DNA of 64,000 nt from an uncultured bacterium. GTDB taxonomy: Bacteria; Margulisbacteria; Marinamargulisbacteria; SXXA01. The stretch is from positions 25,693 through 89,692 of the forward strand of contig CAIPHK010000041.1 in assembly GCA_903864835.1 (NCBI GenBank), in the 5' to 3' direction. How positions within the stretch are numbered: the first letter of the stretch is position 1; each line of letters starts with the position of its first letter. The notes beneath the pieces were generated by a model that worked only from the letters and a program-made list of their open reading frames with translations, was not told the DNA's origin and did not search any database. The translations under genes were made by a program, and so were the position numbers. Shown piece by piece: positions 1 through 19,192 of the stretch.

Positions 1-3000
1 ATTCTGCCGGTATCAAAATCAGCGATTTGTCCCATCCGTTCTTGGGCAATAAAGGAATCCACCATCGTCTTGGTCGAGTCAACCGTAGCCAATGTGTCCA
101 TCGACAACTCATCTGCACCCGACGCTGCTGAGGCCGCACCCAGTGCTTTCGACAATCCCATCAACCCTTGGGAATCCGACGGTGCCAAATTTTTGGTGAG
201 CCCGGTTAACAACGTATTTGCATAATTCGGCGCAACGGTGTCTAAGTCCTTGATTAAAATTGCCGCGCCATTCGGGTCGACTCTGGCAAAATCTTGAAAA
301 TCAGACCGCGCTTTATCGACCGCCGCCGGCCCACCCGTCAACATGATTTTGGCCGTCGTTTCCCTATCTTTTCTGGACATCGGGGCAAGGGGTCGGTCCC
401 CCTGGTAGCCTACCTTAATGGCGGTCACAAACCCTTCCTCCTTGCTCGACATTGCCGCTTTTACGTTGGGATCAGATTGGGCCGCGATCACCTGCTCGAT
501 AACTCTTTTGAACTCGTCCGGTGTATTAAGGGTGGGATCACTACTTCCTTCATCAATGCGAAGCCCCTCCGCACCGACTTTATACCCCAGTTTTTCAAGA
601 CTATGCATAACGGTGTCATCACCAGATTCCAATTTCAGCATGGTTTCGAGAAGGCGTTTTGCACCGGGCAAATACATTGCGGACCCTTCGGCTAATAATT
701 TAGCCAATAACCCGGCGCCCTCTGGGTCGGTCATTACCGCCGCCAACTTTGCGGGGGATCCCCCCAACTCGTTTGCCATAGATACCAACGCTTCGTCGCG
801 ATCCAGAGTCCCCCGCATCTCCGTCAAATGGTCGTCACTCATCTGATGCAGCTCGTCAGGTGCCGATTTCCCACTCAGCGCATCCGCGAAAATGGCCCTG
901 GCCTCTTGCTGCGCCTTTTTGTCCAATGACACCGTTTTGATAAATTGTTCGGACCGAACATCAGCTTGTCTCAAATATTGCTCAAACTCTTGCTGCTTAC
1001 CCAATCGACGCACTTCAAATCCCACCATCTGAATCACCATTGCGCCCGCTTCGCCACCGGTTCGTTTAATATTTCCCAGTAACTGGGTAATAGAGCCAAA
1101 ATCACCGGACGACGATAATTCAACGACCTGTCGCGCCACCGCATTCGCTCGCTTGGTCAGCTCAACATTGGCCGCCACTGGGTCGGTGTTGAATTTGCGA
1201 CTTAGGGAACTAAAATCGCTATTGAGGTGCATCTTGGTGTCTTTTGAATACGCCTCATACTGTTCTTTTCTAAGAATCATTCGGTCTTGCATTGTCTCCA
1301 CACGCAAGGGTTTTTCGATTCCGCGCTGAATCATTTCTTTGATTTCGATCACCATGTCGGCGACCCCATGGGTATCGCCGCGCTTCAATCGGGCCCGAAT
1401 TTCATCAGGAACTGCGGCTCCCGCCGCCGTCCTATCTGCGGATAAGGCTAAATTATGAAGGGCCAGCATCGATTCCCCTGACGTTGTTGCCAGAGTTGCT
1501 GGACGCCCTGCCCTCGAAATTCCAGAAACCATATCGCTTAGAAACTGACTCGGCAAATCGTTGCTGGCGTGGATCTGCCGCTCTGCAGCCTGATTATCAA
1601 TATGATCAAGCAAGGTATTCAGATCAGCCCCCGCAGAAACGTCGTCTGTTGCCCCTCCCATAGCCGTCGCCATACCCCTGATAAACGCCTCTCGCGACTC
1701 CGCGGTCATCGGCTTTTCTGATACAGAAAACTCCCTCACCTTAGCGGCGATCTGCACCAATTGTTCCCCGACCTGCGTCGCCTGCCCCGTCCCTAGTGTT
1801 CCAGTTTGAGTTTTAATCTCCTTAATTCGAGCAACAGCATCTTCGATTACGGTTGCCCCCCAATCTCTAGAACGACCATTTCCCTCAGCTCCCCCGGTTC
1901 CCACTTCACGCCCAACGATTTCAGCACCCGCAGTCACTGCAAACTTAGCAAAGTTTATTAACTGGGCATCCAATTTCTTCTCCGCCTCCGCTAACGCGTT
2001 TACTGCAAATAGTTGTTCAGCCCCCTTCAGCCGTGATGGAAGGTAGCGGCCCGACAACGTCGGGGCATCTACCCGGTCACGAGCCGCCTCAAACGCCGCA
2101 ACGGCTTTGTCTAACGAGACCTGCGCACGATCCATTCCACCCGCCCCCGTACCACCCGCAGCTACGGACTGCATCAACTGGGTCATTGCGCGTGGATCAA
2201 GCGCGCTGGTCATCCGGTCCATATCCGTTTCTTCCATATGCAGCGCTAATTTACCAAAGCCCTCAATACTACTGAGCTGGCTTGCAACCGCTCCGGCCAT
2301 TCGGGCTTCTACGGCTTGCACATTGGATGAATCGACGAATCCTTCACCATCAGTAACCGCTGACCGCTGAAAAACAAAATCGGCCACCTGACCACGCCAC
2401 CCTCTTCCCATAGCCGCCCGACGGACGTCCGATCCCCCCGACCCTAACGAATCCGCAAAAGTGTCCCCGACCTGTTTCGCGCTCACTCCAGGTCCTCCGC
2501 CAAATAAAACATCGGAAATCGAGTGTTTGATCCGAGTCCCTACATCAGCATCATCCGCGGTAACTTCAGATCCTCCGCCAAAAACAACATCGGAAATCGA
2601 GCGTTTGATCCGAGTCCCTACGCCAGCAGCCATCGTTAAGCCCGCAGTTCGGCCAACCTCCGCCCTCGGGTTGGCTTTTTCAACGGCAGTAGACACCGCT
2701 TCTCCCAAACCGCTCATTACCTCGTCATTACCGGAATATCGAGCAATCGTTACTTCCATCATCCGTTTAAACCTCGCGGACCCGTACGCCTTGTCTTGAA
2801 CCGCAAGATCTTGCATGACCCGAGACACCAATTCTCGTCCCGATTTGCCCGCACCCAAGGCTCCCTTGATCATCTCTGATGCCCGTTTTTCGTCGCGAGA
2901 CACAATTAAATTAGTTAGCTCTGCCCGGAACACGGTTTCCACGTGATTCATCATGTGCAAGTTGAGATCCCGACCTTTTTCCATCTCCTGGGTGGTGGTA

Positions 3001-6000
3001 TAGCGATTACCCTCCCCTAGAACCGATTCTGAATCCAGTCTAAACACCCCGCCATCACGGAATCCTTCCTTTAAGGTTCCGTCGAGCTTCCTTACCGCAT
3101 CCTGCGCGTCTGCAAATACAATCGCAAGATCCTTCCCACGCGCCTCGAATCGAGTGGTACCCAATGCAGAATCTTTAAAATCTAAAAAACCAATCGCCGC
3201 TCGCCGGCGATCAAACCCACGTCCTTCGGCGGCATATGCATCGTCGCGTTGTTTGCCAATCTCACGCCCATCATGGGCAAGAAAACGGAAGGCTACATTG
3301 GTCAAATCACTTCTCTGCAAGGCATTCTCTTTCAAAGAAAACGAATACGCTTCCAGTGCACTTTGGCGCACGGCTAACCCCGTATCTTCCACTTTTACGA
3401 GAAGTGCCAAAACGGACGCCGCCGCAGTTTCGTTTCCATGCGCCTTGGCAATCGCAAGCAGTTTCTCTCCCCGTTCCTTTTGAGCCGTCATCAAGTCCCC
3501 CTTGCTCACCGATACTTTCAGGCGGTCCATCAGATCTTGAGTCGCTTTTCCGGTTAAGACATCCATCACCCGTTGGGCTTTTGCACTATCCCCTTTAAAC
3601 TTGTCGTTCAACTGGGTCATGAGTGTGGCCTGAGCAGCCGCATCTCCTTTAAATTTTCCAAGCGCTCTCTCATCCAACGCATGGGTCCCAACATCAGAGT
3701 CCCCTTTATTTTTAAATTGAGCGCCTCGACCCCCTAAATTGCCAGTCGCTCGACCTACCCCCCGAACCGCCGATCCAACCGCCGATGCGACCGCCGAAAT
3801 AGGGCCACTGCCTACCCTAATATTGCCTCGAGAATCAGTGTCTGCCAGGTTCAAGGTCACTAGCGATAAAAATCCACGGCCGGCCGTCTGAACGCCTCTG
3901 AGGTCCGTAGGGACCACGCTGCGGGAATCGCCCAACCCGTTGGCATCGAGCACCGCCTGAGCACTTTTTAAATCAGCGCGAGACAATCCCGACTGATCCA
4001 AGGTTGTCCCCGCGAGCCGTGCACTCACAGCCAAACTCATGTTATAGCTCGACATCCCGATAAGGGTTTGCTCCAAACTACTCAACGCCACCGCAATATC
4101 TCGTTGAAGATTGAGTTTTGATTTGCTGTCCTGAAGGAACAACGCGTCCCCGGTTGTTTCAAATTTATTCCCCGCACCATTGGGCCCCAAAGCGGCCTGA
4201 ACCTTGGCATCTGCAAAATTTAAGGATGAGCCCTTCTCGATCAAAATGGTCCGTTCGCTCCCTGGGATATCGGCACCAGTATGATCTTTTTCTTTTACAG
4301 TATGGGCCTCAAAATTCGATAGGGATTCCCCTTCTAACCGTGCCCGAAGGACCGGATTACCCGTCGCATCCATGGTCAATACCTTGGCACGCTCCAAATT
4401 CTGCGTTGGGGCCAACGCAGCGGTACGGCGGTCCATCAAAACCTGGCTCTCCGGTGACAGCGAAAAACGTGCCGCCACGGGATCTTTTACATCAACGCCA
4501 AAGTGGGCCTGAACCTCATCCGACGCCAAGTCGACATGAACGCCCCGTTCCATCAATACCGTCCGAGAATCTCCTGGGGCTCCCCCTGGGCGGGCCATCG
4601 TCACCCCCACAAATTTACTCAAGTCACCATCCTTCTTGGGATCCAACGCACGCAGTATGGTTTTGCCATCTTTATCCACCGTCGCCACAACAAACGTCCC
4701 GGCGGTGGTATTTGCGACCCCCTGCAAATGGGACTCTGCGTGAGCGACCACCTCTTTTTCCAGAGCACGATCTTTCAAGAATCCACTAGCCCCATCCATT
4801 TCGTCATGAGCCGCCTGTACGTCAATTACGGCACTTCCACGAGAGAGGGCGACTGCAACCGATGAGAGACTACTGTCCGACCCCGCCTTGGTCGTCAGAG
4901 TTCGGTTGCCGGAGGCATCCTTACCCACAGTAACGATGAGATCCTCGGCCTCTCGACGAACAGGCAGCATCTGAGCGACTTGGCTGGCTGACCCAGTCAA
5001 GAACTTCATCGCGGTGCCCGTAGCAGCCGCAGCGGCCGCCGAATCGCTGGCCATTGAAACCTCTAATTGGCCGATCTTGGCGCCCAACTCCGCGGAACGA
5101 AGGTCCTTTTCCGTCGATTTATCAAAGAATGCCTCAGTCGCAATATGGAGACGTTGTTCTTTTTCTTTGAGCTCTTTTATTTCTTGGACTAACGTCTCCT
5201 GTTTGTCAATCCGGCGTTGAGCGTCCTTTGATGCATTCATCTCGAGTTTAGCGACACCCTCCAGCCTAAGCGCTTCCTCATTCCCGGCAGCACGATGTCC
5301 GTTTGCGGCAATAGTGAACTTCGCATCTTTACCCGCCTGTTCCTCTTTTTTAACAAGCTCCAACCTTACATAGCTAAGCTCTGCAGAAGTAGCATGTCCA
5401 CTATCCCAAGCAGCGTCGCCATCTGCGCGAACCACAGCTAGTTCCGCCCTTAATGCAGCCAGTCTGACAGCAGGGCTCGCAAGTTCCTCAGAGAGGGCGA
5501 CTGCAACCGATGAGAGACTACTGTCCGACCCCGCCTTGGTCGTCAGAGTTCGGTTGCCGGAGGCATCCTTACCCACAGTAACCGACATTCCTCGCAATTC
5601 TCTGTCGGCCGCAACCAATTGCGCTACTTGACTTGCGTGCCCCATTAAGAACGTACTTGCAGTACCTGTAGCGACAGCCAATGTCCTTGACTCTTTCTCC
5701 ATTTGAGACGCAACTACTTGCTTGGATAGATGAACTTCCTCGGCGGACAACTCCTCAATCCTAGATTTTAAGCTTAACTCCGTACTCGACGTTTTTTTGG
5801 AGTCTGCAGTCAATGTGTTTACCACGATCTGTTGTGAACGAATTTCCGCTTTTTTTTCCGCAATGGCCCTGGCCTCTGGGGAATTCTTATATTCTTGTAA
5901 CAACTCCTTGGATTTATCCAAGTGTGCCTGAGAACGCGCCGCTACATCCGCGATCCCTTCCGTTTTTGTAGAAATCTCATTCGTTTGCCTGGCAACTTTC

Positions 6001-9000
6001 GCTTCGAAATCTGATACAACTGCCCGTTGATCATTGGCGTTGGTACGATGCTGTGCAGCGTCACTCTCAGCCTTTTCTACCATTTGCAGCCTTAACCCTG
6101 CTCTAGCGACACCGTTGGCTTCTAAGTCTAACGCATCAGCCCTCATTTGGGTGGCTCTTGTGCCAGCATCGTCCGCCAGGCCTTGGGATTCAACTGCCTT
6201 GGCCAAAGAGTCTCGTTCTCTGCCTTGAAATTTCGATAATTTCGTCAGTTGTTTGCTTAACTCTAAGTTCGTTGTTTTTAATTCTTTATTTGTATCATCT
6301 AATATTTTTTTAACAGCAGAGACCTCTAATTCAGCCTTCTGCTTTAAGTAGGCAAGAACTGCCGTTGCTTTCGCAACCTCCCTCTCCCTGGTCTTACGTT
6401 CCTCGTAGCTACTTACGTCAAGATTTATGAGAACCCCACGAAGACGAATAACATGTTGCTCAGCTACTACGGCTGCCCTTTCCTTTTTAATAGCGCCGTT
6501 AACATCCGGTTTACCTTTAGTTCGTAATACGCTCGCTTCAATTCTGAGTTTAGCTTCCTCTGCCCTTTTTTCATCGAGTTGCCGGCGAAAGGTATCTGCA
6601 GGTGTTTTGGCGGCCTGTAGTGAACGCTCTGCCCGTTTTAATTCTATTTTGGCCGCATTAAGCCTTGTCTCAGAATCCGATTTTAACTGATTAAGCTCCT
6701 TCTTCTGTGCGACCTCCGCTTCGGAAAGGCCTCCGAATCTGACGTTGAGATCCGTAACCGCTTGCTGGTGAGTTTTGACGGCAGAACCATGCTTAAGGGC
6801 ATCGGCGCCATGCTCAGCGGCTTCGGCAAGATGTTGTCCCGCCTTTAAATCAGCCCCGTCCGCGTTTCTTCTCATCAATGCAACGAAGTCAACACTCGGG
6901 CGACCGGCTGTGACTTCTGCTCTAAGTTGTTTTGCTTTTTCGTCCTCCTGTGCTGCAATCGCCTCCAACTTCTCGGATTTCCTCTGAGCAAGTCTTAACT
7001 GTAATTTATCCTTCGCTAATTGTTGCGTCATCCCCTGTAACGTTTTATTGGCTGCGTTGGCCTCCATGGCGAGCGCCGTACCCAACGATTTTTCTTGAGC
7101 GCCACTTCCCCGGCCTCCGCTGCCCCCCGCAGGAAGCGCCGCTTCCAACGCTCTCAGTTCACCTTCCTTGGTCTTTAAAACACCCGATGCCGCCGTTAAG
7201 TTCGTATGTACCTCAGCCTCACGCCTTAACTGTGCCAGATCCCACCTAACCTCCCCCAATCGTTTACCTTGCGCTTCGGCAACGGCACTTGCCGAAGCGC
7301 CGCCAGGTACCGCCACACGAATCTGTTGGGCCGGATTATCGGGGTTAGTCACTAGGACTTCGGTATGAGTTGAGGGATCAACACGATCCACCAGTTGTGC
7401 CGTCATCTTGTCATTTGCACCTTGGACCATCTGCACGATCGGAGCATCGCCTACACCCGCCCCCGCCGCACCATGGGTTTGAGCAAATAGCCCCGCCAAC
7501 ACCCGCGGCCCCGCCTCCATATGAACTTCAGTAGCGGCAGCGGCAGCGGCCCCGCCCTTCGTTTGAGCATCCAAATCTACAACGGTTACTTTCGATCCAG
7601 TCGGTGATACCGTCGTCGCAGCATTTCCTCGTGCGATCGAGTCCTGGATTTTTGCACTCGCCCCCTGCACCTTCGCGAGCAATGCATCGGCTTTTGCTTG
7701 AAACCCTTTTCGATCCGCCGATTCCGCCATATTCGATGCCAAGGCTTTAAGCCCAGGAGACAACGTCCCCCCGCCAGCCTTTGTAAATTCGGCCTCCAAT
7801 AATTGGGTCCTCGCACCCGCATCCAGCCCCATGAAATAGGCGGTATACTTGCCATCTTTCATGATCGCAGTCGACGCCCCTGCTTGATTCTTTATCGCTC
7901 CGCCAACATAAGATGCGGCACTACCCATTCCCCCAACGACCGCCCCACTGCCACGCCACAGGCCCCCCGCAACAGACCCAAGACCATTTCGTATTCCGCC
8001 GATTGCCGACATCCCGGCATTCCTCATCGCACCCGGCGCAGTTATTGCACCGTACGCACGGCCCATTGCACCGGGAGCTGCGATCGCGCTAGCGGCCCCT
8101 CCTATTCCGCGAATGGCCGCGCCACCGAGGCTGAAGACCCCCCGACCCAGGCTCAATGCCCCCCGAACACCCGCCGTCACCGGCTTCAATTCCGGAAGCG
8201 CACTGGATCCCACCGCCATATTTTTTAAGGCAAGGGCAACTACGGTATCATCCGCGCCCAGCGTCGCCGCCGCGCGCATAATCCCTGATTTACTCCCGGT
8301 TGATGTATCTAATAGAACTTGAAGATCTTTTTTAGCATCCTTAAACGCCGCCAACGCCTCAGGTGCATCCAATTCCCGGCCCTTAATCGATTTTTCAAAT
8401 CCGTCCATCTTCTCCAATGCATCTCGGCCCTGGATAATCCCCACCAACCCCGCCTCAGCGGCACCCATCTGTCCCTCAGACCGGGTACTTCCATTGCGAA
8501 CATCCTGCGCTTTCGCACGGGTCATCACCCCGGCACGAAGATCATCGACCACGGCCTTGGCCGTAACTGAGCCCCCCGCCGTCTTATTCACCCAATTCGG
8601 GTCATAATTCTTCGTGTCCGTCTTATCGTTCTTCTGCTTGTTAAGGTTCGCGACTTCGATATGCTCTTTTGCGACTGAATCAGCCACCCCCATAATCAGC
8701 TTCTGAATCAACCGTCTTTCCGCGTTTGACTGACCCGAGGGACCGCCCTTCCCGCTCAAGACGTCAAACATATTCCGCCCCACGCTGGCACGCTCCCCAA
8801 GTCGAAGTCCTTGTCCACCCGGTTGGGGAGCAGGGGCCGCGGTCTGTGTCATTGCGTCCATCACCATTTTGGTTAACGCCTCTTCACCGTGCTCTTTTAC
8901 CAAGTTATCTGCCGCTTTATCCTCTTCTACTTTGGCATTCTTCTGCACATGATCTTGGATGGCTTTTTTTGCCATCCCTTTCAGTTTATTCGCAGTGGCA

Positions 9001-12000
9001 GCCCCCGCCTGGTCATATATTTGACCCAAGTCCAAAAGTTGCTGCTGCCGGACCTGATACCCAAACTGGAGCAATGAATTGGCAAACATGGCGGTTTCAA
9101 GCTGCCCAGTGTCCAAAAAGCCCAGGCTCCCTTCGGTCTTTCCTCCTTTGGCTGGCGCCCCTGATTTCTCTCCCCCCTGTTGTTGGATGTTACCCCCGTC
9201 ACTCAAATAATCCCCTTCTTGCAACCCAAAATCGGCCTCGTCCGTCGAAAACATGGGGGACTGCGCGCCCATCAGACTGTCAGGCGCTAGGGCTTGAGAC
9301 AGGGCTTCCACCATGATCAAGGCTAACGTTGGCCCCATTAATTCCAATACATCTGCGGCAATTTCCCAATTGCGTGCCTGCGCATTTAATTGCTCAGAAC
9401 TCGATTTTTTGGCATTTTGAGAAATATCTCCACTCGCCTTTTTATCGGTAGACGCCGGTTTCTCGGCAGGCTTTTCCGTGTCCTGAGATCCTTCTACATT
9501 GTCGTCAACCCCAGCCTCTTCCGTACTCCCACCGGTTTTCGTCGCCGTTTGCTGTTTGGCTTTTTGTTGCAGGTCACCGGCCTTGTTGGCCATTGCCTTC
9601 GCCCCCTCCTGCACCGCGGTGGTCATGACGCCCGTCACCCCTTTTACCATCATGTCGACGCCTCGGTTATACGACTCTACCTCAGCGCCTAGCGCTTTAA
9701 AAATAATGCCAACGGCTTGCTGTTCTAAGTTCGTTTGTTGACTCAGAATAGAATTCATCCCCCGGTACACATTTTTAGCCGACGGCCCGCCCCCCATATC
9801 CTCTGCAGCGTCCCCTTTTGCATCCGACATGGCCATAGAAATATCTCGCAATACCTGGATGGAGCGGGACTTTCGACTCACCAGTTTCTCCATTCGCACC
9901 TGATCTCCGGTGTTTACCTTTTGTTTAATCCCTTGGGATTCCTTGCTGCCAGACCCATCTAAGCCCAAATTGGGGGCCGCCCCCGTCTTTGTTCCGCCAT
10001 CCGCCGGGTTTTTGGCATCAAAATTAACCGAGCTATCCGCAGGGGTCCCCCTCAGCTTGGCATTTTTTTTCTGCTCCGCCTCAGAGTCATTGGGATTGAC
10101 TGGCGCCTCTTCCGGATCCTCTTCATAATTCAATAGTTCGGATGTAATTTGTGGATGGTTCGCAACAACGGATTTCATCATGGCAACGCCCACCGCAATT
10201 CTTGCAAAATTCGCAGCTAACCCCGCGATCATTGTGCCGCTGACCATCTTCCGTGCCATTTTCAAATAACTGGCATCGGACAACCCCCCTGACTTGGCCA
10301 ATTTCACCGCTTTGGTATACGTCCGAGCCCCCGCAACACCCGCAAAGATAAGGTTGGCCGCAATCAGACTCCCCTCAATCGAAGTATTAATCTCGCCCAA
10401 AGTCCGATCATTAATCGCGCCCATGCGGGACTCAGCTTCCGAAATAAAATCCTGAAATATGCCCGTTTGTCCGACCATCGAGCCCATGATCGACCCCACA
10501 TATCGATCAATCCCGGAGGCCATGACACTTAATGCCCCATGTCCCCCTCCCGCATTCCCCCCGAACATTGATCTCAGCGCATTCTGCTTCGCGTTATACA
10601 TTGCTTGATCAATCATCGTCATAAAGGTTCGGACTTGATTGATTTGGGTCATTTGTTTGTACGCATCAAGTACTTTTTCAAAATCTACTTGCTGAAAATT
10701 TCCCCCAATGCCCGCAAGACTACTCGAATCCGTCAAAATCGTATTAGGATCTTTAATACTATTGAGTATCTGAGCCTCTTCTTCGTCCATCTTGGCGTAC
10801 TTCCCATACTGAGAGGCAATCCGAGCGACCGTCCCGGACGCCACCGGAGACGGGAACAAATTGGGATCCATATTTAAATTTTCAAATATTTTTGCGTTCG
10901 AGGTCTTTTCTTGATCAAATTTATCGGGGTCTGCGTTCTCCAGCCGAGATACAAAATCCTTGTTCACCGCAGAATTCTTGTATGGGTCGGTGGAATCATA
11001 ATCAATGTTCGTGAATCCAAATTTCCCCCAAGTTCTATTGGCTAACATCGCAGCTTCTTCCGCAGCAAACCCAAATTTAAGGCCCTCTTCAACCGCAACA
11101 TACGTTGTAAACAACACGGCCTCTCCCAAAGGTACCGGGACAATGGAATAAAAAAATTCGCCGAGGGCCCTGGCGGTTTGAACCACTGCTTTTGCGGTGG
11201 CTCGTCCCATTTCAACCGTTTGGTTGTATTCCTTTTGTTCTTTGGCCCACTGGCTATTAATCGTCGCCACTCGGGTTTGGGTTTCATACCGAAATGTATC
11301 GATAATGCTCGATTCTTTACCAATAATCGCATCCACTTGGCCATCAAAATTGGATACGGTCGACGTTTTTCCACGACCAAACATTGTTGCTGTCACACCC
11401 TCCATTGCGTCCTGGAGGACCTTCAGGATACTCAGATAGATAGACACCCTCATATAGTTTGTCGACGTCGCTAACTGATGGGAGGCCATCGCATCCCCCT
11501 TTAGAACCGCCCTGCCATCCCCACGAGTCGCAATAAAGTCGGTGGTCGACATATTTGTTTCGCCATTTTTTCCGTCTTGCAACGAATACGTAAATCCGCC
11601 ACCTGCATCCAGGCTGCTAGCCCCTTTTGCGCTATCGTATTGGGTACGTGAGTCATATAACAACGAATCCATTTTTCCGATGTAATAGTCTGCGGTGGAT
11701 TCATCGTAAGGATTCACACTGTCCTGATTGAGCTTCGCTAGGTTCGCATCCTTAAGCAACTGCTCCGCATTAGCGCTATTTCCATAAAAATCGCCCTCTT
11801 GGACCATTAGATTGGTATTTCGTTCCTTTATCTTATTCAATTCCAAATCATAATAAATGCCTTGGGCAATCGCGCTCATACCTGCCGATGCCGCATCGGG
11901 AACCGCATTCGACCAATAATCGCCGTTTATTTCCCCGAACAACACCCAACCTACGGGATCAATAGGGACAAAGAGGGGGGGAGGGGCAAACACAATCAAG

Positions 12001-14561
12001 CTCGCCGCTTTCGCTGAAAGGGATGCAACGGGGGCATAAACTGCCGATGCAACTTGGAGAGCGATCTCCGCCACCGTCTGGATCTTGGCCGCGAGATCTT
12101 TGTACCACCGCGCGTATTTATATCGCCCATCAATGTACCCATTTGCCGCTTCGACAAATGGCCGAGTCGCAAAATCAATTTGGGACAATCCCGCGCTTTG
12201 TCGCTGTATTTCAGTCGACATTGCATTGACGACCACGCTCTTTGTCTGGGTAGTAGAACTGGTATTTTTGGCGCCTTCCTCCAACCCCGATGTCGCAGAA
12301 ATCTGTTCCGCAACTTGCCGTTTAGCGGAATTCTCAGCTTCTGTAATCATATACGTCGACCGTATAAAATTCTGATAATCCACCATATAATCGCGTAAAC
12401 GAAGAATGTAATTCATCCCCATTTCTGCGTATTGGCCTTGATCCCCAGCTCGCCCCAGTAAATTTAAATTATTAGCTGCAACCGACGCTGATTTACTGTT
12501 GGTATCATCCTGCCCAACCCCCAGAGACGCCCCGAAGTCCCCCGATGTTGAATCAAAATGGCTCTCCATAGCTTCTAATTGATCGAGCCCGCGTTGCAAC
12601 GTGTTCTGGATCTTGGTCTTGTTATTGATCGCCGAAAAGCCATCCATATTATCAACGGCATTGGATCCAAAATTTAAAAAACTATCGGTATTGGTCAGAT
12701 TAGATCTCTCCGTCGGATTCAACGCATCATTGTCCCACAGCGAAATACCCTCCCCAAATTTCATGGTATACCGAACATATGCCTGCGCGTTCTCTAAATT
12801 GACCTTCGCCATAGTCGCGTTCAGATCCAGCGACGCAGTGGCCCGAACAAACGAAAACGCCCCTGAAATTTCATCCGCAAGCCCTGACAAAATTCCGGTC
12901 GCCAGATTCTCCCGTCCGTATTCTTCCAGCTCGGCGCTAATTCGGGCCTGTTGGGCCCCATTCGTCCCGGAAATAAATATGAACATTTCGTTAACCACCG
13001 TCTCAATGGACGAACTAATTTTCCCCAAGGAATTGTTCATCGCGTTGACAAAGCGATTTTTGAATTTACCGGTGGACCCCATGGTCTCTAAAAGTTCTGA
13101 TTTTTGATAATCTTCGAACCCGGACACCGCAATCTCAGCCGCCTGGTGTTCGTCATATTCCAACACCATATTGATCACGTTAAACATCATCACCGCTCGG
13201 TTAATTAAATCCCGAGATTGGGTCATAAAGTCATAAAATGCCTGTTCATTCAGCGTCGTCACATACATGTCGGAATGCCAGGAATTTCCAAAATCTGCAA
13301 TTCTCGTCTTGGTCAGTGTATAAAACCCAAAATCCACCGAAGTCCCATCCCATCCGGGATGTTGGGTAATATTTTTTTCGACTCCGGTGACGGAATCGAG
13401 ATAGGTAAAGCCAGTCCCATCGGCATTGGCGAGGGGCACCTCCACCGGGTTCTCCAACAAGGCTTTTAAAGTCGTTAATTTCTCATTGATACTTTCAACG
13501 CCGTGCTCAACATCAAAATATTTGGCATTCGACGCCGTCTCAAAAAACTCATCAATCGCCTTATATTGTTTAAATGTCGTGTCGTTGCCTTCCAGCACCA
13601 ACAGCATATTTAAGGAATCAAAGGCAACGGGTGGCTTATCAGTAGTCGCGTCCAACGACAGAGATTTTCCATTATCCAATACAAATTTGACGGTTGCGTG
13701 GCCTTTGGCGGCCCCCGTTTTGTCCACCAAATATCCTGCGGCCAATGTTACTTTGCTATGGATATCCGCATCAGACACCCCTGATTTAGACAACGCCCCC
13801 ATCAGCAATGACGCAGTCAGAACCGACAAATCCTCGCAATCGCCTCCCCGAGCAGCCATCGTTTCGTTAATAGTGTTCCAGTGATCCGCCGGTTTCCCTT
13901 CCACCGCCACCCCATCTGAAATATATTTAAAATTGGTCTGAACGTAGGTTGTCACGGCCGCCGCGATATCCGATTCAGACATCCCTTTTTTAAGGGTGCC
14001 GGCGCGGGTCATTTCTTCTAAAATCGTTTGAATATTTGAGTCTTTCGGGGAAATAAGCCCCACGCCATTCCGATATTTAACCTCGGTGGGGGTATAGCCA
14101 TTCTCCGCCATGGATTCTTTTCGAAATTCATCTGCGGCTACCGTTAGTGGATCCGGCGTCGGGCTCATCGTGGTTACATGGGCCATCACCGTCTGGACCT
14201 CTGCAGACGAGATCCCTAATCGATTAATCGTCCCTGGAGTCGTCAGTTTTTTAAGCGCTTCGCAGACGAGGGCCTTAGCACCCGGTGTTGGCACCACACC
14301 TCGGGTTGCAAATTCGGTCACCGCGGCAGTTTGTGCTGTTGTTAAGCCCGATTCGGCCGTCCCGGCCCAATTCACAATTACTTTACGAAGCCACGAATCA
14401 GAAATTCCCGGGGTCGTCAGACCAGCGGAATCGCCTTTCGTCGGCGCTCCGGTTGTTGGCTCTACAAACGGCGAATACCCGGCATTGACGCCGGGTGTTG
14501 TTGCGGGAGAAACCCCGCCCTTTAGAACTCGAAATTGATCATCGAGATTGGGTGCCCACAC
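1..14561 (-). CDS. Giant protein, 5' partial in window (about 4,850 codons; 3' end lies beyond position 1); N-terminal transglutaminase-like Cys/His domain, central Lys/Glu/Ala-rich coiled-coil-like region, internal repeats
   Basis: Reverse-complement reading frame is open from GTG at 14561-14559 (in-frame TAA just upstream, AGGAAG 7 nt before the GTG) to position 1. All seven minus-strand ORFs the track lists inside this span share one other frame (end coordinate mod 3 = 1) and are 112 aa or shorter; plus-strand ORFs are short Arg/Pro-rich shadows. Hand translation gives protein-like sequence throughout. Absent from the ORF track because no stop lies inside the window. Confidence 0.8.
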   Translation of the reverse strand, partial: MWAPNLDDQFRVLKGGVSPATTPGVNAGYSPFVEPTTGAPTKGDSAGLTTPGISDSWLRKVIVNWAGTAESGLTTAQTAAVTEFATRGVVPTPGAKALVCEALKKLTTPGTINRLGISSAEVQTVMAHVTTMSPTPDPLTVAADEFRKESMAENGYTPTEVKYRNGVGLISPKDSNIQTILEEMTRAGTLKKGMSESDIAAAVTTYVQTNFKYISDGVAVEGKPADHWNTINETMAARGGDCEDLSVLTASLLMGALSKSGVSDADIHSKVTLAAGYLVDKTGAAKGHATVKFVLDNGKSLSLDATTDKPPVAFDSLNMLLVLEGNDTTFKQYKAIDEFFETASNAKYFDVEHGVESINEKLTTLKALLENPVEVPLANADGTGFTYLDSVTGVEKNITQHPGWDGTSVDFGFYTLTKTRIADFGNSWHSDMYVTTLNEQAFYDFMTQSRDLINRAVMMFNVINMVLEYDEHQAAEIAVSGFEDYQKSELLETMGSTGKFKNRFVNAMNNSLGKISSSIETVVNEMFIFISGTNGAQQARISAELEEYGRENLATGILSGLADEISGAFSFVRATASLDLNATMAKVNLENAQAYVRYTMKFGEGISLWDNDALNPTERSNLTNTDSFLNFGSNAVDNMDGFSAINNKTKIQNTLQRGLDQLEAMESHFDSTSGDFGASLGVGQDDTNSKSASVAANNLNLLGRAGDQGQYAEMGMNYILRLRDYMVDYQNFIRSTYMITEAENSAKRQVAEQISATSGLEEGAKNTSSTTQTKSVVVNAMSTEIQRQSAGLSQIDFATRPFVEAANGYIDGRYKYARWYKDLAAKIQTVAEIALQVASAVYAPVASLSAKAASLIVFAPPPLFVPIDPVGWVLFGEINGDYWSNAVPDAASAGMSAIAQGIYYDLELNKIKERNTNLMVQEGDFYGNSANAEQLLKDANLAKLNQDSVNPYDESTADYYIGKMDSLLYDSRTQYDSAKGASSLDAGGGFTYSLQDGKNGETNMSTTDFIATRGDGRAVLKGDAMASHQLATSTNYMRVSIYLSILKVLQDAMEGVTATMFGRGKTSTVSNFDGQVDAIIGKESSIIDTFRYETQTRVATINSQWAKEQKEYNQTVEMGRATAKAVVQTARALGEFFYSIVPVPLGEAVLFTTYVAVEEGLKFGFAAEEAAMLANRTWGKFGFTNIDYDSTDPYKNSAVNKDFVSRLENADPDKFDQEKTSNAKIFENLNMDPNLFPSPVASGTVARIASQYGKYAKMDEEEAQILNSIKDPNTILTDSSSLAGIGGNFQQVDFEKVLDAYKQMTQINQVRTFMTMIDQAMYNAKQNALRSMFGGNAGGGHGALSVMASGIDRYVGSIMGSMVGQTGIFQDFISEAESRMGAINDRTLGEINTSIEGSLIAANLIFAGVAGARTYTKAVKLAKSGGLSDASYLKMARKMVSGTMIAGLAANFARIAVGVAMMKSVVANHPQITSELLNYEEDPEEAPVNPNDSEAEQKKNAKLRGTPADSSVNFDAKNPADGGTKTGAAPNLGLDGSGSKESQGIKQKVNTGDQVRMEKLVSRKSRSIQVLRDISMAMSDAKGDAAEDMGGGPSAKNVYRGMNSILSQQTNLEQQAVGIIFKALGAEVESYNRGVDMMVKGVTGVMTTAVQEGAKAMANKAGDLQQKAKQQTATKTGGSTEEAGVDDNVEGSQDTEKPAEKPASTDKKASGDISQNAKKSSSEQLNAQARNWEIAADVLELMGPTLALIMVEALSQALAPDSLMGAQSPMFSTDEADFGLQEGDYLSDGGNIQQQGGEKSGAPAKGGKTEGSLGFLDTGQLETAMFANSLLQFGYQVRQQQLLDLGQIYDQAGAATANKLKGMAKKAIQDHVQKNAKVEEDKAADNLVKEHGEEALTKMVMDAMTQTAAPAPQPGGQGLRLGERASVGRNMFDVLSGKGGPSGQSNAERRLIQKLIMGVADSVAKEHIEVANLNKQKNDKTDTKNYDPNWVNKTAGGSVTAKAVVDDLRAGVMTRAKAQDVRNGSTRSEGQMGAAEAGLVGIIQGRDALEKMDGFEKSIKGRELDAPEALAAFKDAKKDLQVLLDTSTGSKSGIMRAAATLGADDTVVALALKNMAVGSSALPELKPVTAGVRGALSLGRGVFSLGGAAIRGIGGAASAIAAPGAMGRAYGAITAPGAMRNAGMSAIGGIRNGLGSVAGGLWRGSGAVVGGMGSAASYVGGAIKNQAGASTAIMKDGKYTAYFMGLDAGARTQLLEAEFTKAGGGTLSPGLKALASNMAESADRKGFQAKADALLAKVQGASAKIQDSIARGNAATTVSPTGSKVTVVDLDAQTKGGAAAAAATEVHMEAGPRVLAGLFAQTHGAAGAGVGDAPIVQMVQGANDKMTAQLVDRVDPSTHTEVLVTNPDNPAQQIRVAVPGGASASAVAEAQGKRLGEVRWDLAQLRREAEVHTNLTAASGVLKTKEGELRALEAALPAGGSGGRGSGAQEKSLGTALAMEANAANKTLQGMTQQLAKDKLQLRLAQRKSEKLEAIAAQEDEKAKQLRAEVTAGRPSVDFVALMRRNADGADLKAGQHLAEAAEHGADALKHGSAVKTHQQAVTDLNVRFGGLSEAEVAQKKELNQLKSDSETRLNAAKIELKRAERSLQAAKTPADTFRRQLDEKRAEEAKLRIEASVLRTKGKPDVNGAIKKERAAVVAEQHVIRLRGVLINLDVSSYEERKTREREVAKATAVLAYLKQKAELEVSAVKKILDDTNKELKTTNLELSKQLTKLSKFQGRERDSLAKAVESQGLADDAGTRATQMRADALDLEANGVARAGLRLQMVEKAESDAAQHRTNANDQRAVVSDFEAKVARQTNEISTKTEGIADVAARSQAHLDKSKELLQEYKNSPEARAIAEKKAEIRSQQIVVNTLTADSKKTSSTELSLKSRIEELSAEEVHLSKQVVASQMEKESRTLAVATGTASTFLMGHASQVAQLVAADRELRGMSVTVGKDASGNRTLTTKAGSDSSLSSVAVALSEELASPAVRLAALRAELAVVRADGDAAWDSGHATSAELSYVRLELVKKEEQAGKDAKFTIAANGHRAAGNEEALRLEGVAKLEMNASKDAQRRIDKQETLVQEIKELKEKEQRLHIATEAFFDKSTEKDLRSAELGAKIGQLEVSMASDSAAAAAATGTAMKFLTGSASQVAQMLPVRREAEDLIVTVGKDASGNRTLTTKAGSDSSLSSVAVALSRGSAVIDVQAAHDEMDGASGFLKDRALEKEVVAHAESHLQGVANTTAGTFVVATVDKDGKTILRALDPKKDGDLSKFVGVTMARPGGAPGDSRTVLMERGVHVDLASDEVQAHFGVDVKDPVAARFSLSPESQVLMDRRTAALAPTQNLERAKVLTMDATGNPVLRARLEGESLSNFEAHTVKEKDHTGADIPGSERTILIEKGSSLNFADAKVQAALGPNGAGNKFETTGDALFLQDSKSKLNLQRDIAVALSSLEQTLIGMSSYNMSLAVSARLAGTTLDQSGLSRADLKSAQAVLDANGLGDSRSVVPTDLRGVQTAGRGFLSLVTLNLADTDSRGNIRVGSGPISAVASAVGSAVRGVGRATGNLGGRGAQFKNKGDSDVGTHALDERALGKFKGDAAAQATLMTQLNDKFKGDSAKAQRVMDVLTGKATQDLMDRLKVSVSKGDLMTAQKERGEKLLAIAKAHGNETAAASVLALLVKVEDTGLAVRQSALEAYSFSLKENALQRSDLTNVAFRFLAHDGREIGKQRDDAYAAEGRGFDRRRAAIGFLDFKDSALGTTRFEARGKDLAIVFADAQDAVRKLDGTLKEGFRDGGVFRLDSESVLGEGNRYTTTQEMEKGRDLNLHMMNHVETVFRAELTNLIVSRDEKRASEMIKGALGAGKSGRELVSRVMQDLAVQDKAYGSARFKRMMEVTIARYSGNDEVMSGLGEAVSTAVEKANPRAEVGRTAGLTMAAGVGTRIKRSISDVVFGGGSEVTADDADVGTRIKHSISDVLFGGGPGVSAKQVGDTFADSLGSGGSDVRRAAMGRGWRGQVADFVFQRSAVTDGEGFVDSSNVQAVEARMAGAVASQLSSIEGFGKLALHMEETDMDRMTSALDPRAMTQLMQSVAAGGTGAGGMDRAQVSLDKAVAAFEAARDRVDAPTLSGRYLPSRLKGAEQLFAVNALAEAEKKLDAQLINFAKFAVTAGAEIVGREVGTGGAEGNGRSRDWGATVIEDAVARIKEIKTQTGTLGTGQATQVGEQLVQIAAKVREFSVSEKPMTAESREAFIRGMATAMGGATDDVSAGADLNTLLDHIDNQAAERQIHASNDLPSQFLSDMVSGISRAGRPATLATTSGESMLALHNLALSADRTAAGAAVPDEIRARLKRGDTHGVADMVIEIKEMIQRGIEKPLRVETMQDRMILRKEQYEAYSKDTKMHLNSDFSSLSRKFNTDPVAANVELTKRANAVARQVVELSSSGDFGSITQLLGNIKRTGGEAGAMVIQMVGFEVRRLGKQQEFEQYLRQADVRSEQFIKTVSLDKKAQQEARAIFADALSGKSAPDELHQMSDDHLTEMRGTLDRDEALVSMANELGGSPAKLAAVMTDPEGAGLLAKLLAEGSAMYLPGAKRLLETMLKLESGDDTVMHSLEKLGYKVGAEGLRIDEGSSDPTLNTPDEFKRVIEQVIAAQSDPNVKAAMSSKEEGFVTAIKVGYQGDRPLAPMSRKDRETTAKIMLTGGPAAVDKARSDFQDFARVDPNGAAILIKDLDTVAPNYANTLLTGLTKNLAPSDSQGLMGLSKALGAASAASGADELSMDTLATVDSTKTMVDSFIAQERMGQIADFDTGR
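2493..2621. repeat. Imperfect tandem duplication (two ~51-nt copies, 78-nt period) inside the giant gene, encoding repeated GTRIK(R/H)SISDV(V/L)FGGG
   Basis: tcctccgccaaa..atcggaaatcgag(t/c)gtttgatccgagtccctac occurs at 2493-2543 and 2571-2621. Confidence 0.7.
4843..4934. repeat. Copy 1 of a perfect 92-nt direct repeat inside the giant gene
   Basis: gagagggcgactgcaaccgatgagagactactgtccgaccccgccttggtcgtcagagttcggttgccggaggcatccttacccacagtaac is identical at 4843-4934 and 5491-5582; encodes VTVGKDASGNRTLTTKAGSDSSLSSVAVALS twice. Confidence 0.85.
5491..5582. repeat. Copy 2 of the perfect 92-nt direct repeat inside the giant gene
   Basis: Identical to 4843-4934; flanks are related but diverged, so the identical core sits within a diverged ~650-nt repeat unit. 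Confidence 0.85.
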
Positions 14562-14585
14562 GATGCCACTTCCTTTCAGAAATTT

Positions 14586-14707: not shown

Positions 14708-16240
14708 TCACCGGCGCGCAATACACTCCAATATCAAACTCCGGACCAAATCCGGCTTGGCACGTCCCTTGGTCTCTTTCATCACTTGGCCCATCAAAAA
14801 ATCAGCTGAATTTGTTTTACCATTTTTTACTTTTTCCACTACATCCGGATTCGCATCTAAAATCCGATCCACGACGACCACCAACTCACCGGTATCCGAA
14901 ATCTGGGTGGCCCCGGATGCCGACACAATCGCGTCCGGAGATTGGCCCGTTTGGACACATTTCTCAAGCACTTCTTTGGCCATTTTTCCTGACAATTTCC
15001 CCGACTGAATCAACCCCAATAACTGAACCAAACCGTCCGGCGTGACCTTGGATTCCTTAAACGACTGCTTCGTCTCTTTTAACAACGAATTCAGATCACC
15101 GACCACCCATTTCGCCGCATCTTTAGGTACCGCGCCGGCACCAATACACTGGTCTAAATACTGGCTCGTCTCCGGCTCGTTCAACACGACATCAATTTCA
15201 AAATCCGACAGCCCCGCGTCACGATATCGGGTCGCCTTGGCTTCCGGAAGTTCGGGCAACGCGGCTCGAATGGTGTCAATCCACTCGCTCGTCACCACCA
15301 AAGGGTACAAATCCGGTTCTGGAAAATATCGGTAATCGTGAGACTCTTCTTTGTCACGCAACACCCGTGTGGTTTGAGTTGCTTCGTCATACTGACGGGT
15401 TTGCTGAACAATCCGCTCACCCGCGGTAAGCAACTGGGTTTGTCTCGCAATTTCCGAATGGATGGCCCGCTCAATACTTCGAAATGAATTCACATTTTTG
15501 GTTTCCGTCCGGGTCCCGAACGGTTCCGTTCCGACGGGCCGGAGCGACACATTGATATCCGCCCGCAAACTGCCTTCATCCATATTTCCGTCACAAATCC
15601 CCAAATAGACCAATCGCTGCCGAAGGCCTTCGACGTATAATCGGGCTTCCTGGGCGGTTCGGATGTCGGGTTCGGACACAATTTCGATCAAGGGGGTACA
15701 CGCCCGGTTTAAATCGACGTGGGAATGGGTCGCCCCCGCAATAGTATCCGAGCCTTGGTGAATCAATTTCCCCGCATCTTCTTCCATATGAATCCGAGTG
15801 ATCCCAATTCGCTTTTTGACGCCATCCACCACAATATCCAAATGCCCGCCCAAACAAATGGGCTGATCGAACTGGCTAATTTGATACCCCTTGGGTAAAT
15901 CCGGATAAAAATAATTTTTTCTGGAGAATACCGAGGTGTTCCGCACGTCACAGTCCAAGGCCAATCCCGCCATAATGGCGTATTCCACCGCGCGACGATT
16001 CAGCACGGGAAGTGCACCTGGCATTCCCAAGCAGACGGGACACACGTTGGTGTTCGGTCGATCGCCAAACTGCGTGGAACACCCACAAAATAACTTCGTG
16101 TTGGTTTTAAGCTGAGCGTGAACTTCTATTCCTATCACTACTTCGTAGTGTATTTGTTTCACCGTTGCTTCGCCCGGATGAAACGCGGTCGAACTGGCCA
16201 AGCCAGATTCTCCCTTAGGCTCAGAGCTGTCTATAGTCAT
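14708..16240 (-). CDS. gatB: Asp-tRNA(Asn)/Glu-tRNA(Gln) amidotransferase subunit B
   Basis: ORF 14708-16387; GatB-like sequence (VIGIEVHAQL, CPVCLGMPGALPVLN). Start placed at internal ATG 16240, which overlaps the gatA stop as ATGA. Confidence 0.9.
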   Translation of the reverse strand: MTIDSSEPKGESGLASSTAFHPGEATVKQIHYEVVIGIEVHAQLKTNTKLFCGCSTQFGDRPNTNVCPVCLGMPGALPVLNRRAVEYAIMAGLALDCDVRNTSVFSRKNYFYPDLPKGYQISQFDQPICLGGHLDIVVDGVKKRIGITRIHMEEDAGKLIHQGSDTIAGATHSHVDLNRACTPLIEIVSEPDIRTAQEARLYVEGLRQRLVYLGICDGNMDEGSLRADINVSLRPVGTEPFGTRTETKNVNSFRSIERAIHSEIARQTQLLTAGERIVQQTRQYDEATQTTRVLRDKEESHDYRYFPEPDLYPLVVTSEWIDTIRAALPELPEAKATRYRDAGLSDFEIDVVLNEPETSQYLDQCIGAGAVPKDAAKWVVGDLNSLLKETKQSFKESKVTPDGLVQLLGLIQSGKLSGKMAKEVLEKCVQTGQSPDAIVSASGATQISDTGELVVVVDRILDANPDVVEKVKNGKTNSADFLMGQVMKETKGRAKPDLVRSLILECIARR

Positions 16241-17999: not shown

Positions 18000-18015
18000 A
18001 AGTATACCAGGAAAT

Positions 18016-19134: not shown

Positions 19135-19192
19135 AAGTTAAATGAGCTCGAAGTGTAATGGCTATTGGGAGAGGAATCTAGGAGTGCTTGAT

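What the first reader, a model, noticed from the sequence alone, without database searches (positions are those of the whole stretch)
4843..5582. Perfect 92-nt direct repeat embedded in diverged repeat units of the giant gene
Two copies of a 92-nt segment are 100 percent identical 648 nt apart (4843-4934 and 5491-5582), while the surrounding sequence of each unit is only loosely similar. Identity confined to a core suggests recent gene conversion or recombination between repeat units, or an assembly collapse. Such repeats can drive length variation of giant surface or effector proteins.
Basis: seen in the sequence. Interest (0 to 1): 0.5.

Follow-up and report, generated by a model that had tools for sequence, protein, structure and literature searches.

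The report
Perfect 31-codon repeat in giant gene
Two exactly identical 93-base stretches lie 216 codons apart inside a roughly 5,300-codon gene of an uncultured freshwater bacterium; one was most likely copied over the other recently, which is an ordinary kind of event but could let the protein gain or lose a 216-residue module.

Summary
Window 4842-4934 and 5490-5582 are a 93-nt (not 92) perfect direct repeat, 648 nt (216 codons) apart. Both copies lie on the coding (minus) strand of one ORF of at least 4,861 codons (3-14561; about 5,300 codons by comparison with relatives).

Each copy is exactly 31 codons (VTVGKDASGNRTLTTKAGSDSSLSSVAVALS). The 40 codons N-terminal of each copy are paralogous in register, but anciently so: 19/40 residues match, only 5 with the same codon, and third-position identity is 22%. 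C-terminal of the copies nothing aligns. The identity is therefore recent and confined to the core (P about 1e-17).

Only two such units exist. They sit in a ~1,190-codon insert that is absent from the sister-clade orthologues (three distinct versions) and has no homologue among 1.84 billion protein representatives. I found no RNA family, fold, promoter, terminator, mobile-element or DGR signature.

Best reading: recent short-tract, non-reciprocal copying (gene conversion or template switching) between two old helix-hairpin modules. The resulting repeat is a plausible substrate for in-frame loss or gain of a 216-residue module. Assembly error cannot be excluded without reads but looks unlikely. 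This is a known kind of feature in an unusual orphan gene, and length variation is untested.

The parts
5490..5582 (-). Core copy 1 (upstream in the gene): 31 codons, giant-protein aa 3002-3032 (numbering from window 14585), VTVGKDASGNRTLTTKAGSDSSLSSVAVALS
   Evidence: It is 100% identical to copy 2 and starts and ends exactly on codon boundaries.
4842..4934 (-). Core copy 2 (downstream in the gene): the same 31 codons, aa 3218-3248
   Evidence: GC3 of the core (0.61) is nearer to the surroundings of copy 2 (0.45-0.68) than to those of copy 1 (0.35-0.48). This is a weak, non-significant hint that copy 2 was the donor.
5583..5702 (-). Anciently diverged paralogous N-terminal flank of copy 1 (aa 2962-3001, includes ATGTASTFLMGHASQVAQL)
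   Evidence: in register with 4935-5054; 19/40 residues identical, 5 with the same codon, 51% nt identity, 22.5% third-position identity.
4935..5054 (-). Anciently diverged paralogous N-terminal flank of copy 2 (aa 3178-3217, includes ATGTAMKFLTGSASQVAQM)
4935..5489 (-). The 555 nt between the two cores. Together with one core it forms the 648-nt (216-codon) segment that recombination between the cores would delete or duplicate in frame. It is predicted to be mostly alpha-helical.
   Evidence: Spacing. Secondary structure from a low-confidence single-sequence AlphaFold2 model (helices at model residues 179-202 and 208-344).
5457..5933 (-). Full extent of paralogous unit 1 as detectable at protein level (aa 2885-3043)
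   Evidence: BLASTP of protein chunks: 2885-2996 vs 3122-3212 at 35%; 2965-3043 vs 3181-3259 at 66%
4809..5222 (-). Full extent of paralogous unit 2 (aa 3122-3259)
4104..7667 (-). Insert of about 1,188 codons (aa ~2307-3494) that contains both units. It is absent from all sister-clade orthologues examined and has no detectable homologue elsewhere.
   Evidence: tblastn against L007-L010, L017 and L018 aligns aa 1-2306 and 3495 onwards with only about 21 codons between them. phmmer of the insert against 1.84 billion representatives gave 0 hits at E<=1e-3. No relatives were found in GTDB genomes or JGI metagenomes. An independent contig (cev-rQZo) runs from gatB 3,040 codons into the gene, across the proximal junction of the insert and core copy 1.
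3..14561 (-). Giant ORF (at least 4,853 codons from GTG 14561; C-terminus beyond the window start; about 5,300 codons estimated from the 4,061-aa orthologue). It has an N-terminal transglutaminase-like Cys-His-Asp region.
   Evidence: start. Orthologues show 58% identity over aa 1-2306 and 43-51% (38% in L017) over aa 3495 onwards. PF01841 scores 19.2 bits, below its cut-off of 23. C250/H296/D312 are invariant in P0001.

Best explanation
The repeat is real. It is the product of a recent, non-reciprocal copying event inside one gene.

Two modules of the giant protein arose long ago by duplication and have since diverged to saturation at silent sites. Each module is a long helical stretch, then a conserved ATGTAxxFLxGxASQVAQ block, then a short predicted beta-hairpin. 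Recently the 31-codon hairpin segment of one module was overwritten with, or copied from, the other. The mechanism would be short-tract gene conversion or replication template switching between sites 648 nt apart on the same or the sister chromosome. This erased every difference, synonymous ones included.

What is shown:
- the identity and its exact in-frame limits;
- the ancient divergence of the adjoining paralogous flank;
- that there are only two copies;
- that the segment is coding and carries no RNA, regulatory or mobile-element signature;
- that the units lie in an insert specific to this lineage.

What is inferred:
- that the event is recent;
- that it was a templated copy rather than a cassette insertion;
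- the direction (copy 2 to copy 1, weakly).

Consequence (inferred): a 93-bp perfect direct repeat with 555 bp between its copies is a substrate for RecA-independent and RecA-dependent recombination. Every product stays in frame, removing or adding one 216-residue helix-plus-hairpin module of a probably elongated protein.
For: - Perfect 93-nt identity with sharp edges.
- 31/31 identical codons in the core, against 5 shared codons among 19 conserved residues and 22.5% third-position identity in the adjacent in-register flank.
- Clustering probability about 1e-17.
- Both copies are in frame in one ORF that is conserved in relatives.
- No Rfam family, no excess RNA folding (z = -1.2 and -0.3), and no promoter or terminator matches.
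- No further copies in the window, the relatives, JGI metagenomes, viral contigs or plasmids.
- A second case of homogenisation in the same gene: the two 26-codon units at 2478-2628 are 88% identical here but far more diverged from each other in the orthologue.
- For the consequence: spacing 648 = 3 x 216. Direct repeats under 200 bp within a few kb give RecA-independent deletions accompanied by expansions in E. coli (PMC7145654, read). In-frame repeat-mediated deletions and duplications are documented in cagY (PMC2194252).
Against: - Present-day flanks offer no homology to start RecA-mediated exchange. The 30 nt next to the core on the alignable side are 27% identical, and the longest identical run in the flank is 6 nt. 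A classical conversion therefore requires that the two cores were already much more alike than their flanks, or that a mechanism needing little homology acted.
- Both tract ends fall exactly on codon boundaries, which is mildly more expected for an added cassette than for a replacement tract.
- No orthologue carries the insert, so the usual phylogenetic proof (paralogues closer to each other than to their orthologues) cannot be made.
- No reads or second assembly with DNA cross the region.
- No length variant was seen.
Confidence: 0.6

Rival explanations
1. Assembly or consensus artefact. The true genome has a different sequence at one copy, or a different number of 648-nt units (collapse), and the contig path through a repeat node is wrong.
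For: The window appears to come from a metagenome assembly; the same species is known only from metagenome contigs. Every same-species short-read contig with DNA ends inside the giant gene before the repeat. One contig without DNA ends 49 nt past copy 1, about 141 nt from the start of that copy, which equals MEGAHIT's largest k. Repeats are a known cause of fragmentation in giant genes (10.1101/2023.11.21.568195).
Against: An assembler cannot create the four distinct core/flank junctions without reads that contain them. The repeat (93 nt) is shorter than the 150-nt reads and the k=141 used for the datasets that contain this organism, so single reads and k-mers can span a core with both flanks. 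The other contig ends (window 14211, 12570, 10536, 10483, 9129, 8400) are unrelated to the repeat. A collapse of extra identical units would create a branch at the core and break the contig, yet the window is continuous. The assembler and read length of the window's own contig are not known to me.
Confidence: 0.1
2. A recent 648-nt tandem duplication (or unequal exchange) created the two cores, and the flanks then diverged very fast or were replaced by recombination with foreign alleles.
For: The distal part of the giant gene evolves much faster than its neighbours in the sister clade: 97.8% identity over the first 14.8 kb, against 80-94% further into the gene.
Against: Silent sites in the alignable flank are saturated, which positive selection does not produce. 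The C-terminal flanks show no similarity at all. A duplication would leave 648 nt, not 93 nt, of identity.
Confidence: 0.06
3. A small in-frame cassette was inserted independently at both sites, either as a miniature mobile element like the in-frame palindromic elements of Rickettsia (own knowledge) or by illegitimate copy-and-paste.
For: Both boundaries are exactly codon-aligned and the length is a multiple of 3. There is no homology at the tract edges.
Against: There are only two copies in 64 kb, and none in relatives, JGI metagenomes, viral contigs or plasmids. There is no palindromic or stable fold, no terminal inverted repeats or target duplication in the flanks, and no transposase, integrase or reverse transcriptase in the window. 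Both copies sit at the same position relative to an old paralogous block, as expected for a part of the unit rather than for an insertion.
Confidence: 0.05
4. The identity is maintained by selection on the nucleotide sequence itself, as an embedded RNA, a binding site, or the template/variable repeat pair of a diversity-generating retroelement (DGR).
For: None positive. It is listed only because perfect identity could in principle reflect constraint.
Against: No Rfam match, no significant fold on either strand, and no promoter or terminator. DGR pairs differ at adenines and need a nearby reverse transcriptase. Here there are zero differences, both copies are mid-ORF, and the window holds no reverse transcriptase. 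Even strongly constrained elements rarely keep 93/93 identity while neighbouring conserved protein blocks are saturated at silent sites.
Confidence: 0.02

Closest known systems
Direct DNA repeats in Helicobacter pylori cagY (Aras et al. 2003, PMC2194252)
   Same: Direct repeats lie inside a large ORF, and their recombination products are always in frame, giving deletions or duplications of protein modules. Here the single possible event (648 nt) is also in frame.
   Different: cagY has an extraordinary number of repeats in two regions, and size variants were demonstrated within hosts. Here there is one pair (plus one 78-nt tandem), no variant has been observed, and there is no evidence that the protein is surface-exposed or under immune or predator pressure.
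Intragenic homogenisation (concerted evolution) of repeats and short-tract recombination in very large bacterial proteins, e.g. the Giant1-5 genes of Apilactobacillus kunkeei (PMC12863079)
   Same: A very large gene without known domains that evolves fast and shows patches of near-identity attributed to recent recombination.
   Different: In A. kunkeei the tracts are mostly allelic exchanges between strains or between gene subtypes, and many exceed 1 kb. Here the tract is 93 nt, between two paralogous modules of one gene, with no usable flanking homology.
Experimental 101-bp direct-repeat deletion substrates in E. coli (Lovett-type tetA assays; PMC7145654)
   Same: Repeat length (about 100 bp) and spacing (under a few kb) fall in the range where RecA-independent template switching yields deletions, crossovers and expansions.
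   Different: Those are engineered plasmid or chromosomal reporters in E. coli. Nothing is known about recombination functions or rates in this uncultured lineage.
DGR template/variable repeat pairs
   Same: Two copies of about 100 nt of near-identical sequence close together, one or both in a coding region.
   Different: There are no adenine-specific mismatches (zero mismatches), both copies are in the middle of the same ORF, and the window holds no reverse transcriptase. This is not a DGR.

Membership tests
Intragenic (non-allelic) gene conversion between paralogous repeats | Two paralogous segments in one genome | tested here: met
   Units at aa 2885-3043 and 3122-3259 align (35-66% aa); a gap-free in-register flank of 40 codons adjoins the core.
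Intragenic (non-allelic) gene conversion between paralogous repeats | A tract whose identity, silent sites included, is significantly higher than that of the flanking paralogous sequence | tested here: met
   31/31 identical codons in the core against 5/19 in the flank; third-position identity 100% against 22.5%; P about 1e-17.
Intragenic (non-allelic) gene conversion between paralogous repeats | Paralogues closer to each other than to their orthologues in a related genome | not testable with these tools
   No available relative carries the insert.
Intragenic (non-allelic) gene conversion between paralogous repeats | Tract ends lie in sequence similar enough for homologous strand exchange | tested here: not met
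   Identity falls to 27-30% within 30 nt on both sides, and the longest identical run in the alignable flank is 6 nt. This weakens classical RecA-mediated conversion but not templated copying as such.
Contingency-type in-frame repeat recombination (cagY-like) | Direct DNA repeats within the ORF whose recombination keeps the reading frame | tested here: met
   Spacing 648 = 216 x 3, and both copies are in the same frame.
Contingency-type in-frame repeat recombination (cagY-like) | Size variants of the gene or protein within or between populations, caused by these repeats | not testable with these tools
   No second assembly with DNA crosses the region.
Contingency-type in-frame repeat recombination (cagY-like) | Many repeats forming a repeat region | tested here: not met
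   The gene has only this pair and one 78-nt tandem.
Diversity-generating retroelement (TR/VR pair) | TR and VR differ mainly at adenines of TR | tested here: not met
   Zero differences.
Diversity-generating retroelement (TR/VR pair) | Reverse transcriptase gene nearby | tested here: not met
   Pfam scans of the giant ORF and of 42 of the other 47 listed ORFs of at least 150 aa found no RT. The five unscanned ORFs overlap scanned genes. The DNA downstream of the gene end lies outside the window and was not seen.
Miniature in-frame mobile elements (RPE/MITE-like) | Multiple dispersed copies | tested here: not met
   Two copies in 64 kb and none elsewhere searched. The rest of the genome was not available.
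Miniature in-frame mobile elements (RPE/MITE-like) | Palindromic or terminal-inverted-repeat structure | tested here: not met
   Fold z-scores of -1.17 and -0.33.
Assembly artefact at a repeat | Coverage anomaly, or missing or extra junction reads | not testable with these tools
   No reads were accessible.

The most novel reading that the evidence does not exclude
The core pair may be more than a passive scar. It could be a working in-frame recombination switch that adds or removes a 216-residue helix-plus-hairpin module, changing the length of a rod-like segment by up to about 20 nm if the helix is straight. The protein is a ~5,300-residue orphan of a deep-branching, Margulisiibacteriota-like freshwater bacterium. 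The identical core would have been installed by a copying mechanism that needs essentially no flanking homology. The ~1,190-codon insert would then be a lineage-specific, expandable spacer built by such events.
Probability: 0.1. Interest if true: 0.5.

Novelty: new member of a known kind. Interest (0 to 1): 0.27.

Why it matters
The repeat itself matters little. Short identical repeats produced by intragenic copying, and their potential for in-frame length change, are well known. Three things make it somewhat useful.

- It is a clean, datable event. The tract is perfect and codon-aligned, in flanks saturated at silent sites, so there is no visible homology to prime the exchange. That is of some interest for how short-tract copying works in bacteria.
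- It flags a practical hazard. This giant gene is broken in every short-read assembly of the species that could be inspected.
- It drew attention to a ~1,190-codon orphan insert in a giant gene of an almost unstudied lineage, which is the more unusual object here.

If population data showed 216-residue length variants, the locus would become a simple natural model of modular length variation in a giant protein.

Tried and rejected
**Homologue searches of the repeat region**
- The search for homologous proteins on the 612-aa repeat region gave no hit.
- GTDB genome contigs with the same query gave none.
- JGI metagenome contigs gave none, with the protein or with a wobble-degenerate DNA pattern of the core.
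- Viral contigs and plasmids gave none.
- phmmer of the whole insert against 1.84 billion representatives gave 0 hits. The giant proteins of this species and its sisters seem not to be indexed in the protein collections: an N-terminal query returned only one partial relative, P0001. 'No hit' therefore says nothing about other strains of the same species.

**Independent assemblies**
- I looked for assemblies crossing the repeat through exact look-ups of GatB and its cluster variants. Same-species contigs stop short of the repeat. Sister-clade contigs lack the insert.

**Further copies of the unit**
- I suspected a third, degenerate copy ('GNxxxTT ... (V/I)AVALS' near aa 3470-3502, and the 102-residue repeats at aa 3300-3467). 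A profile of the unit finds no further significant copy, so I dropped this.

**False leads in other loci**
- The apparent indel between L008 and L009 is a 100-N scaffold gap.
- The non-matching tail of L001 is a (GACGGA)n artefact.

**Structure prediction**
- The two-unit region gave only secondary-structure hints (mean pLDDT 59, cores about 40).
- The N-terminal domain model was too poor (pLDDT 45) to justify a fold search, so none was run.
- The PDB sequence search gave only non-significant hits to LapG-type cysteine proteases (E about 0.2).

**Other readings considered and rejected**
- RNA and regulatory readings, DGR, and a mobile cassette: see the rival explanations.
Full report
**1. The observation**

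The sequence, the repeat finder, a direct comparison and self-BLASTN agree. Window 4842-4934 and 5490-5582 are identical over 93 nt, with starts 648 nt apart, and the next base differs on each side. An exact 93-mer cannot recur by chance in 64 kb. Within the alignable part of the two units (219 positions, 63 mismatches), a mismatch-free 93-nt window has probability about 1e-17. The longest identical run outside the core is 6 nt.

**2. Where it lies**

The only long open frame across the first 14.6 kb is on the minus strand, 3..14585: 4,861 codons running off the window start.
- Gene callers on independent contigs of the same species start it at GTG 14561, 147 nt after gatB.
- Upstream lie gatCAB, a 1,835-codon ORF without domains, queA and hemH.
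- Orthologues in a sister clade are 3,987, 4,061 and 4,114 residues long. By alignment, this protein should be about 5,300 residues.
- Each core is exactly 31 codons, VTVGKDASGNRTLTTKAGSDSSLSSVAVALS, at aa 3002-3032 and 3218-3248, numbering from window 14585.

**3. Anatomy of the two units**

Protein self-comparison finds one pair of paralogous units, aa 2885-3043 and 3122-3259.
- N-terminal to each core, 40 codons align in register without gaps and include a conserved block, ATGTA..FL.G.ASQVAQ. Of these, 19/40 residues are identical but only 5 use the same codon (one of them ATG). Nucleotide identity is 51% and third-position identity 22.5%, which is saturated.
- The 30 nt immediately next to the core are only 27% identical.
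- C-terminal to the cores, nothing aligns (30% identity).
- In the core, all 31 codons are identical.
- A profile of the 84-residue unit finds just these two copies in the giant protein and none in the orthologues.
- A single-sequence AlphaFold2 model has low confidence (mean pLDDT 59, about 40 at the cores). It predicts long helices interrupted at each core by a beta-hairpin, VTVGK / RTLTTK. I use this only as a hint.

**4. Context: a lineage-specific orphan insert**

The one related genome in GTDB is L007 (MAG 'bacterium isolate RE-9nov16-181'). Further sister-clade contigs are L008-L010, L017 and L018.
- They align to aa 1-2306 (57-58% identity) and to aa 3495 onward (38-51%), with only about 21 codons in between.
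- About 1,188 codons (window 4104-7667), including both units, are therefore present only in this lineage among those that can be inspected. Without an outgroup, gain here and loss in the sister clade cannot be told apart.
- The insert is open in frame and enriched in A, E, K, L and R.
- It has no homologue at E<=1e-3 among 1.84 billion protein representatives, none in GTDB genomes and none in JGI metagenomes.
- An independent contig (no DNA available) runs from gatB 3,040 codons into the gene. It crosses the proximal insert junction and core copy 1 and ends at window ~5441. The insert is therefore not a chimera peculiar to the window's contig.

**5. What the repeat is not**

- There is no Rfam family anywhere in the gene.
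- Neither strand of the core folds better than shuffles (z = -1.17 and -0.33).
- There are no promoter-like or terminator-like sites in 4600-5800.
- The core has no other copy in the window or in any fetched locus. A wobble-degenerate pattern of it occurs nowhere in JGI metagenomes or IMG/VR. The region has no plasmid match.
- Pfam scans of the giant ORF and of 42 of the other 47 listed ORFs of at least 150 aa found no reverse transcriptase, transposase or integrase. The five unscanned ORFs overlap scanned genes.

A DGR pair, a miniature mobile element and an embedded RNA or regulatory element are therefore each contradicted by at least one defining feature.

**6. Most likely origin**

Protein-level selection cannot hold 31 codons identical at silent sites while a neighbouring conserved block is saturated. 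The identity must be recent.
- A recent 648-nt duplication would leave 648 nt of identity, not 93.
- The simplest history is an old duplication of a helix-hairpin module, long divergence, and then a recent non-reciprocal copy of the hairpin segment from one module to the other.
- The core's GC3 (0.61) resembles the surroundings of copy 2 more than those of copy 1. This is a weak, non-significant hint at direction.
- One difficulty remains. Today's flanks provide no homology for RecA-mediated exchange, and both tract ends are codon-aligned. Either the two hairpin segments were already much more similar than their flanks, so that heteroduplex formation was confined to them, or the copy arose by template switching that needs only microhomology.
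- The same gene shows a second sign of homogenisation. The two 26-codon units at 2478-2628 are 88% identical here, while the corresponding units of the orthologue are far more diverged from each other.

**7. Likely consequence**

A 93-bp perfect direct repeat with 555 bp between its copies lies in the range where E. coli shows RecA-independent, proximity-dependent deletion accompanied by crossovers and expansions (PMC7145654). Because 648 = 3 x 216, deletion or duplication keeps the frame and removes or adds one 216-residue module. This is the logic shown experimentally for cagY (PMC2194252). No such variant could be looked for here.

**8. Artefact?**

No reads were available and no second assembly with DNA spans the repeat.
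- For an artefact: the source is metagenomic; same-species contigs all end inside the gene (window 14211, 12570, 10536, 10483, 9129, 8400); and one contig ends about 141 nt after the start of copy 1.
- Against: the other break points are unrelated to the repeat, and the junctions must exist in reads. The datasets that hold this organism were sequenced at 2x150 and assembled with MEGAHIT defaults (contig names carry k141), so a 93-nt repeat can be spanned.

I put an artefact at about 10%.

**9. The organism and the gene**

- Neighbouring genes are ordinary bacterial housekeeping and LPS/sugar genes.
- The trigger factor's best named relative is a Candidatus Margulisiibacteriota MAG at 41% identity. 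Closer relatives (55-87%) are unnamed 'bacterium'.
- Sample labels point to stratified freshwater lakes (BUCK21 label; this is inference).
- The giant-gene preprint notes that Margulisbacteria have a high incidence of very large genes (10.1101/2023.11.21.568195).
- The N-terminus carries a sub-threshold transglutaminase-like match (PF01841, 19.2 bits against a cut-off of 23). Its Cys250/His296/Asp312 are invariant in the only database relative, and it gives non-significant PDB hits to LapG-type proteases.
- There is no N-terminal hydrophobic signal and only one hydrophobic peak.
- The function of the protein remains unknown. I treat it as a large elongated protein on weak evidence.

**10. Verdict**

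The feature is real and statistically unambiguous. It is best explained by a recent short-tract intragenic copying event and may destabilise the gene's length in frame. It is a new instance of a known kind of phenomenon. The more unusual object is the orphan insert that surrounds it.

Noticed in passing
window 4104-7667 (minus strand): About 1,188 codons of the giant gene are absent from the sister-clade orthologues (three distinct versions), which have about 21 codons there. The segment has no homologue among 1.84 billion protein representatives. Whether it was gained here or lost in the sister clade is unknown.
   Followed up: partly
window 2478-2628 (minus strand, aa ~3986-4036): A tandem pair of 78-nt (26-codon) units is 88% identical (VGTRIK.SISDV.FGGG). 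The two corresponding units in the orthologue L008 are much more diverged from each other, which suggests homogenisation or re-duplication in this lineage.
   Followed up: partly
window ~13650-13838 (minus strand, aa 250-312): Transglutaminase-like / cysteine-protease-like Cys-His-Asp motif near the N-terminus of the giant protein. PF01841 scores below its cut-off, the residues are invariant in P0001, and there are non-significant PDB hits to LapG proteases. The structure model was too poor to test the fold.
   Followed up: partly
window 8400-14561; loci L001-L006: Every same-species short-read contig that could be read ends inside the giant gene at a different place, although the sequences are 99.96-100% identical to the window. 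The cause is not established.
   Followed up: partly
L001:17842-17917: The last 76 nt of this contig do not match the window and consist of (GACGGA)n, probably an assembly or sequencing artefact at the contig end.
   Followed up: yes
L008 vs L010, locus positions 14850-21449: Two sister-clade strains are 97.8% identical over the first 14.8 kb (housekeeping genes and the start of the giant gene) but only 80-94% identical further into the giant gene. Total lengths differ (3,987, 4,061 and 4,114 aa), so the distal part of the gene evolves much faster than its surroundings.
   Followed up: partly
L008:16498-16599: A hexanucleotide microsatellite (ACGGCA)n lies inside the orthologous giant gene of the sister clade and is a potential in-frame length-variable tract.
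   Followed up: no
window 19193-24700 (minus strand): A second very large ORF (1,835 aa) just upstream of gatCAB has no Pfam domain above threshold. It is conserved in the sister clade (1,786 aa).
   Followed up: no
window 34940-47901: A cluster of nucleotide-sugar modification genes: nucleotidyltransferase, dehydratases/epimerases, DegT aminotransferase, a DHQ-synthase-like gene, a TPP enzyme and an aldolase. It also holds several glycosyltransferases, including a heptosyltransferase-family gene. It probably makes an unusual branched or amino sugar for LPS or another glycan.
   Followed up: no
window 49644-50630 and 54734-55921: Two AAA_14/DUF4143 ATPase genes flank a phosphoenolpyruvate carboxylase gene (52084-54858). 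The first is shorter and matches only the end of the AAA_14 model, so it may be truncated.
   Followed up: no
window 56643-57866 (minus strand): A eukaryotic-type protein kinase domain protein (PF00069).
   Followed up: no
window 14708-16240 (minus strand): GatB of this lineage is 510 aa, with a 28-residue N-terminal extension relative to the 482-aa GatB of the sister clade (95% identical otherwise). An intermediate 499-aa form (97% identical) exists in other metagenomes.
   Followed up: no
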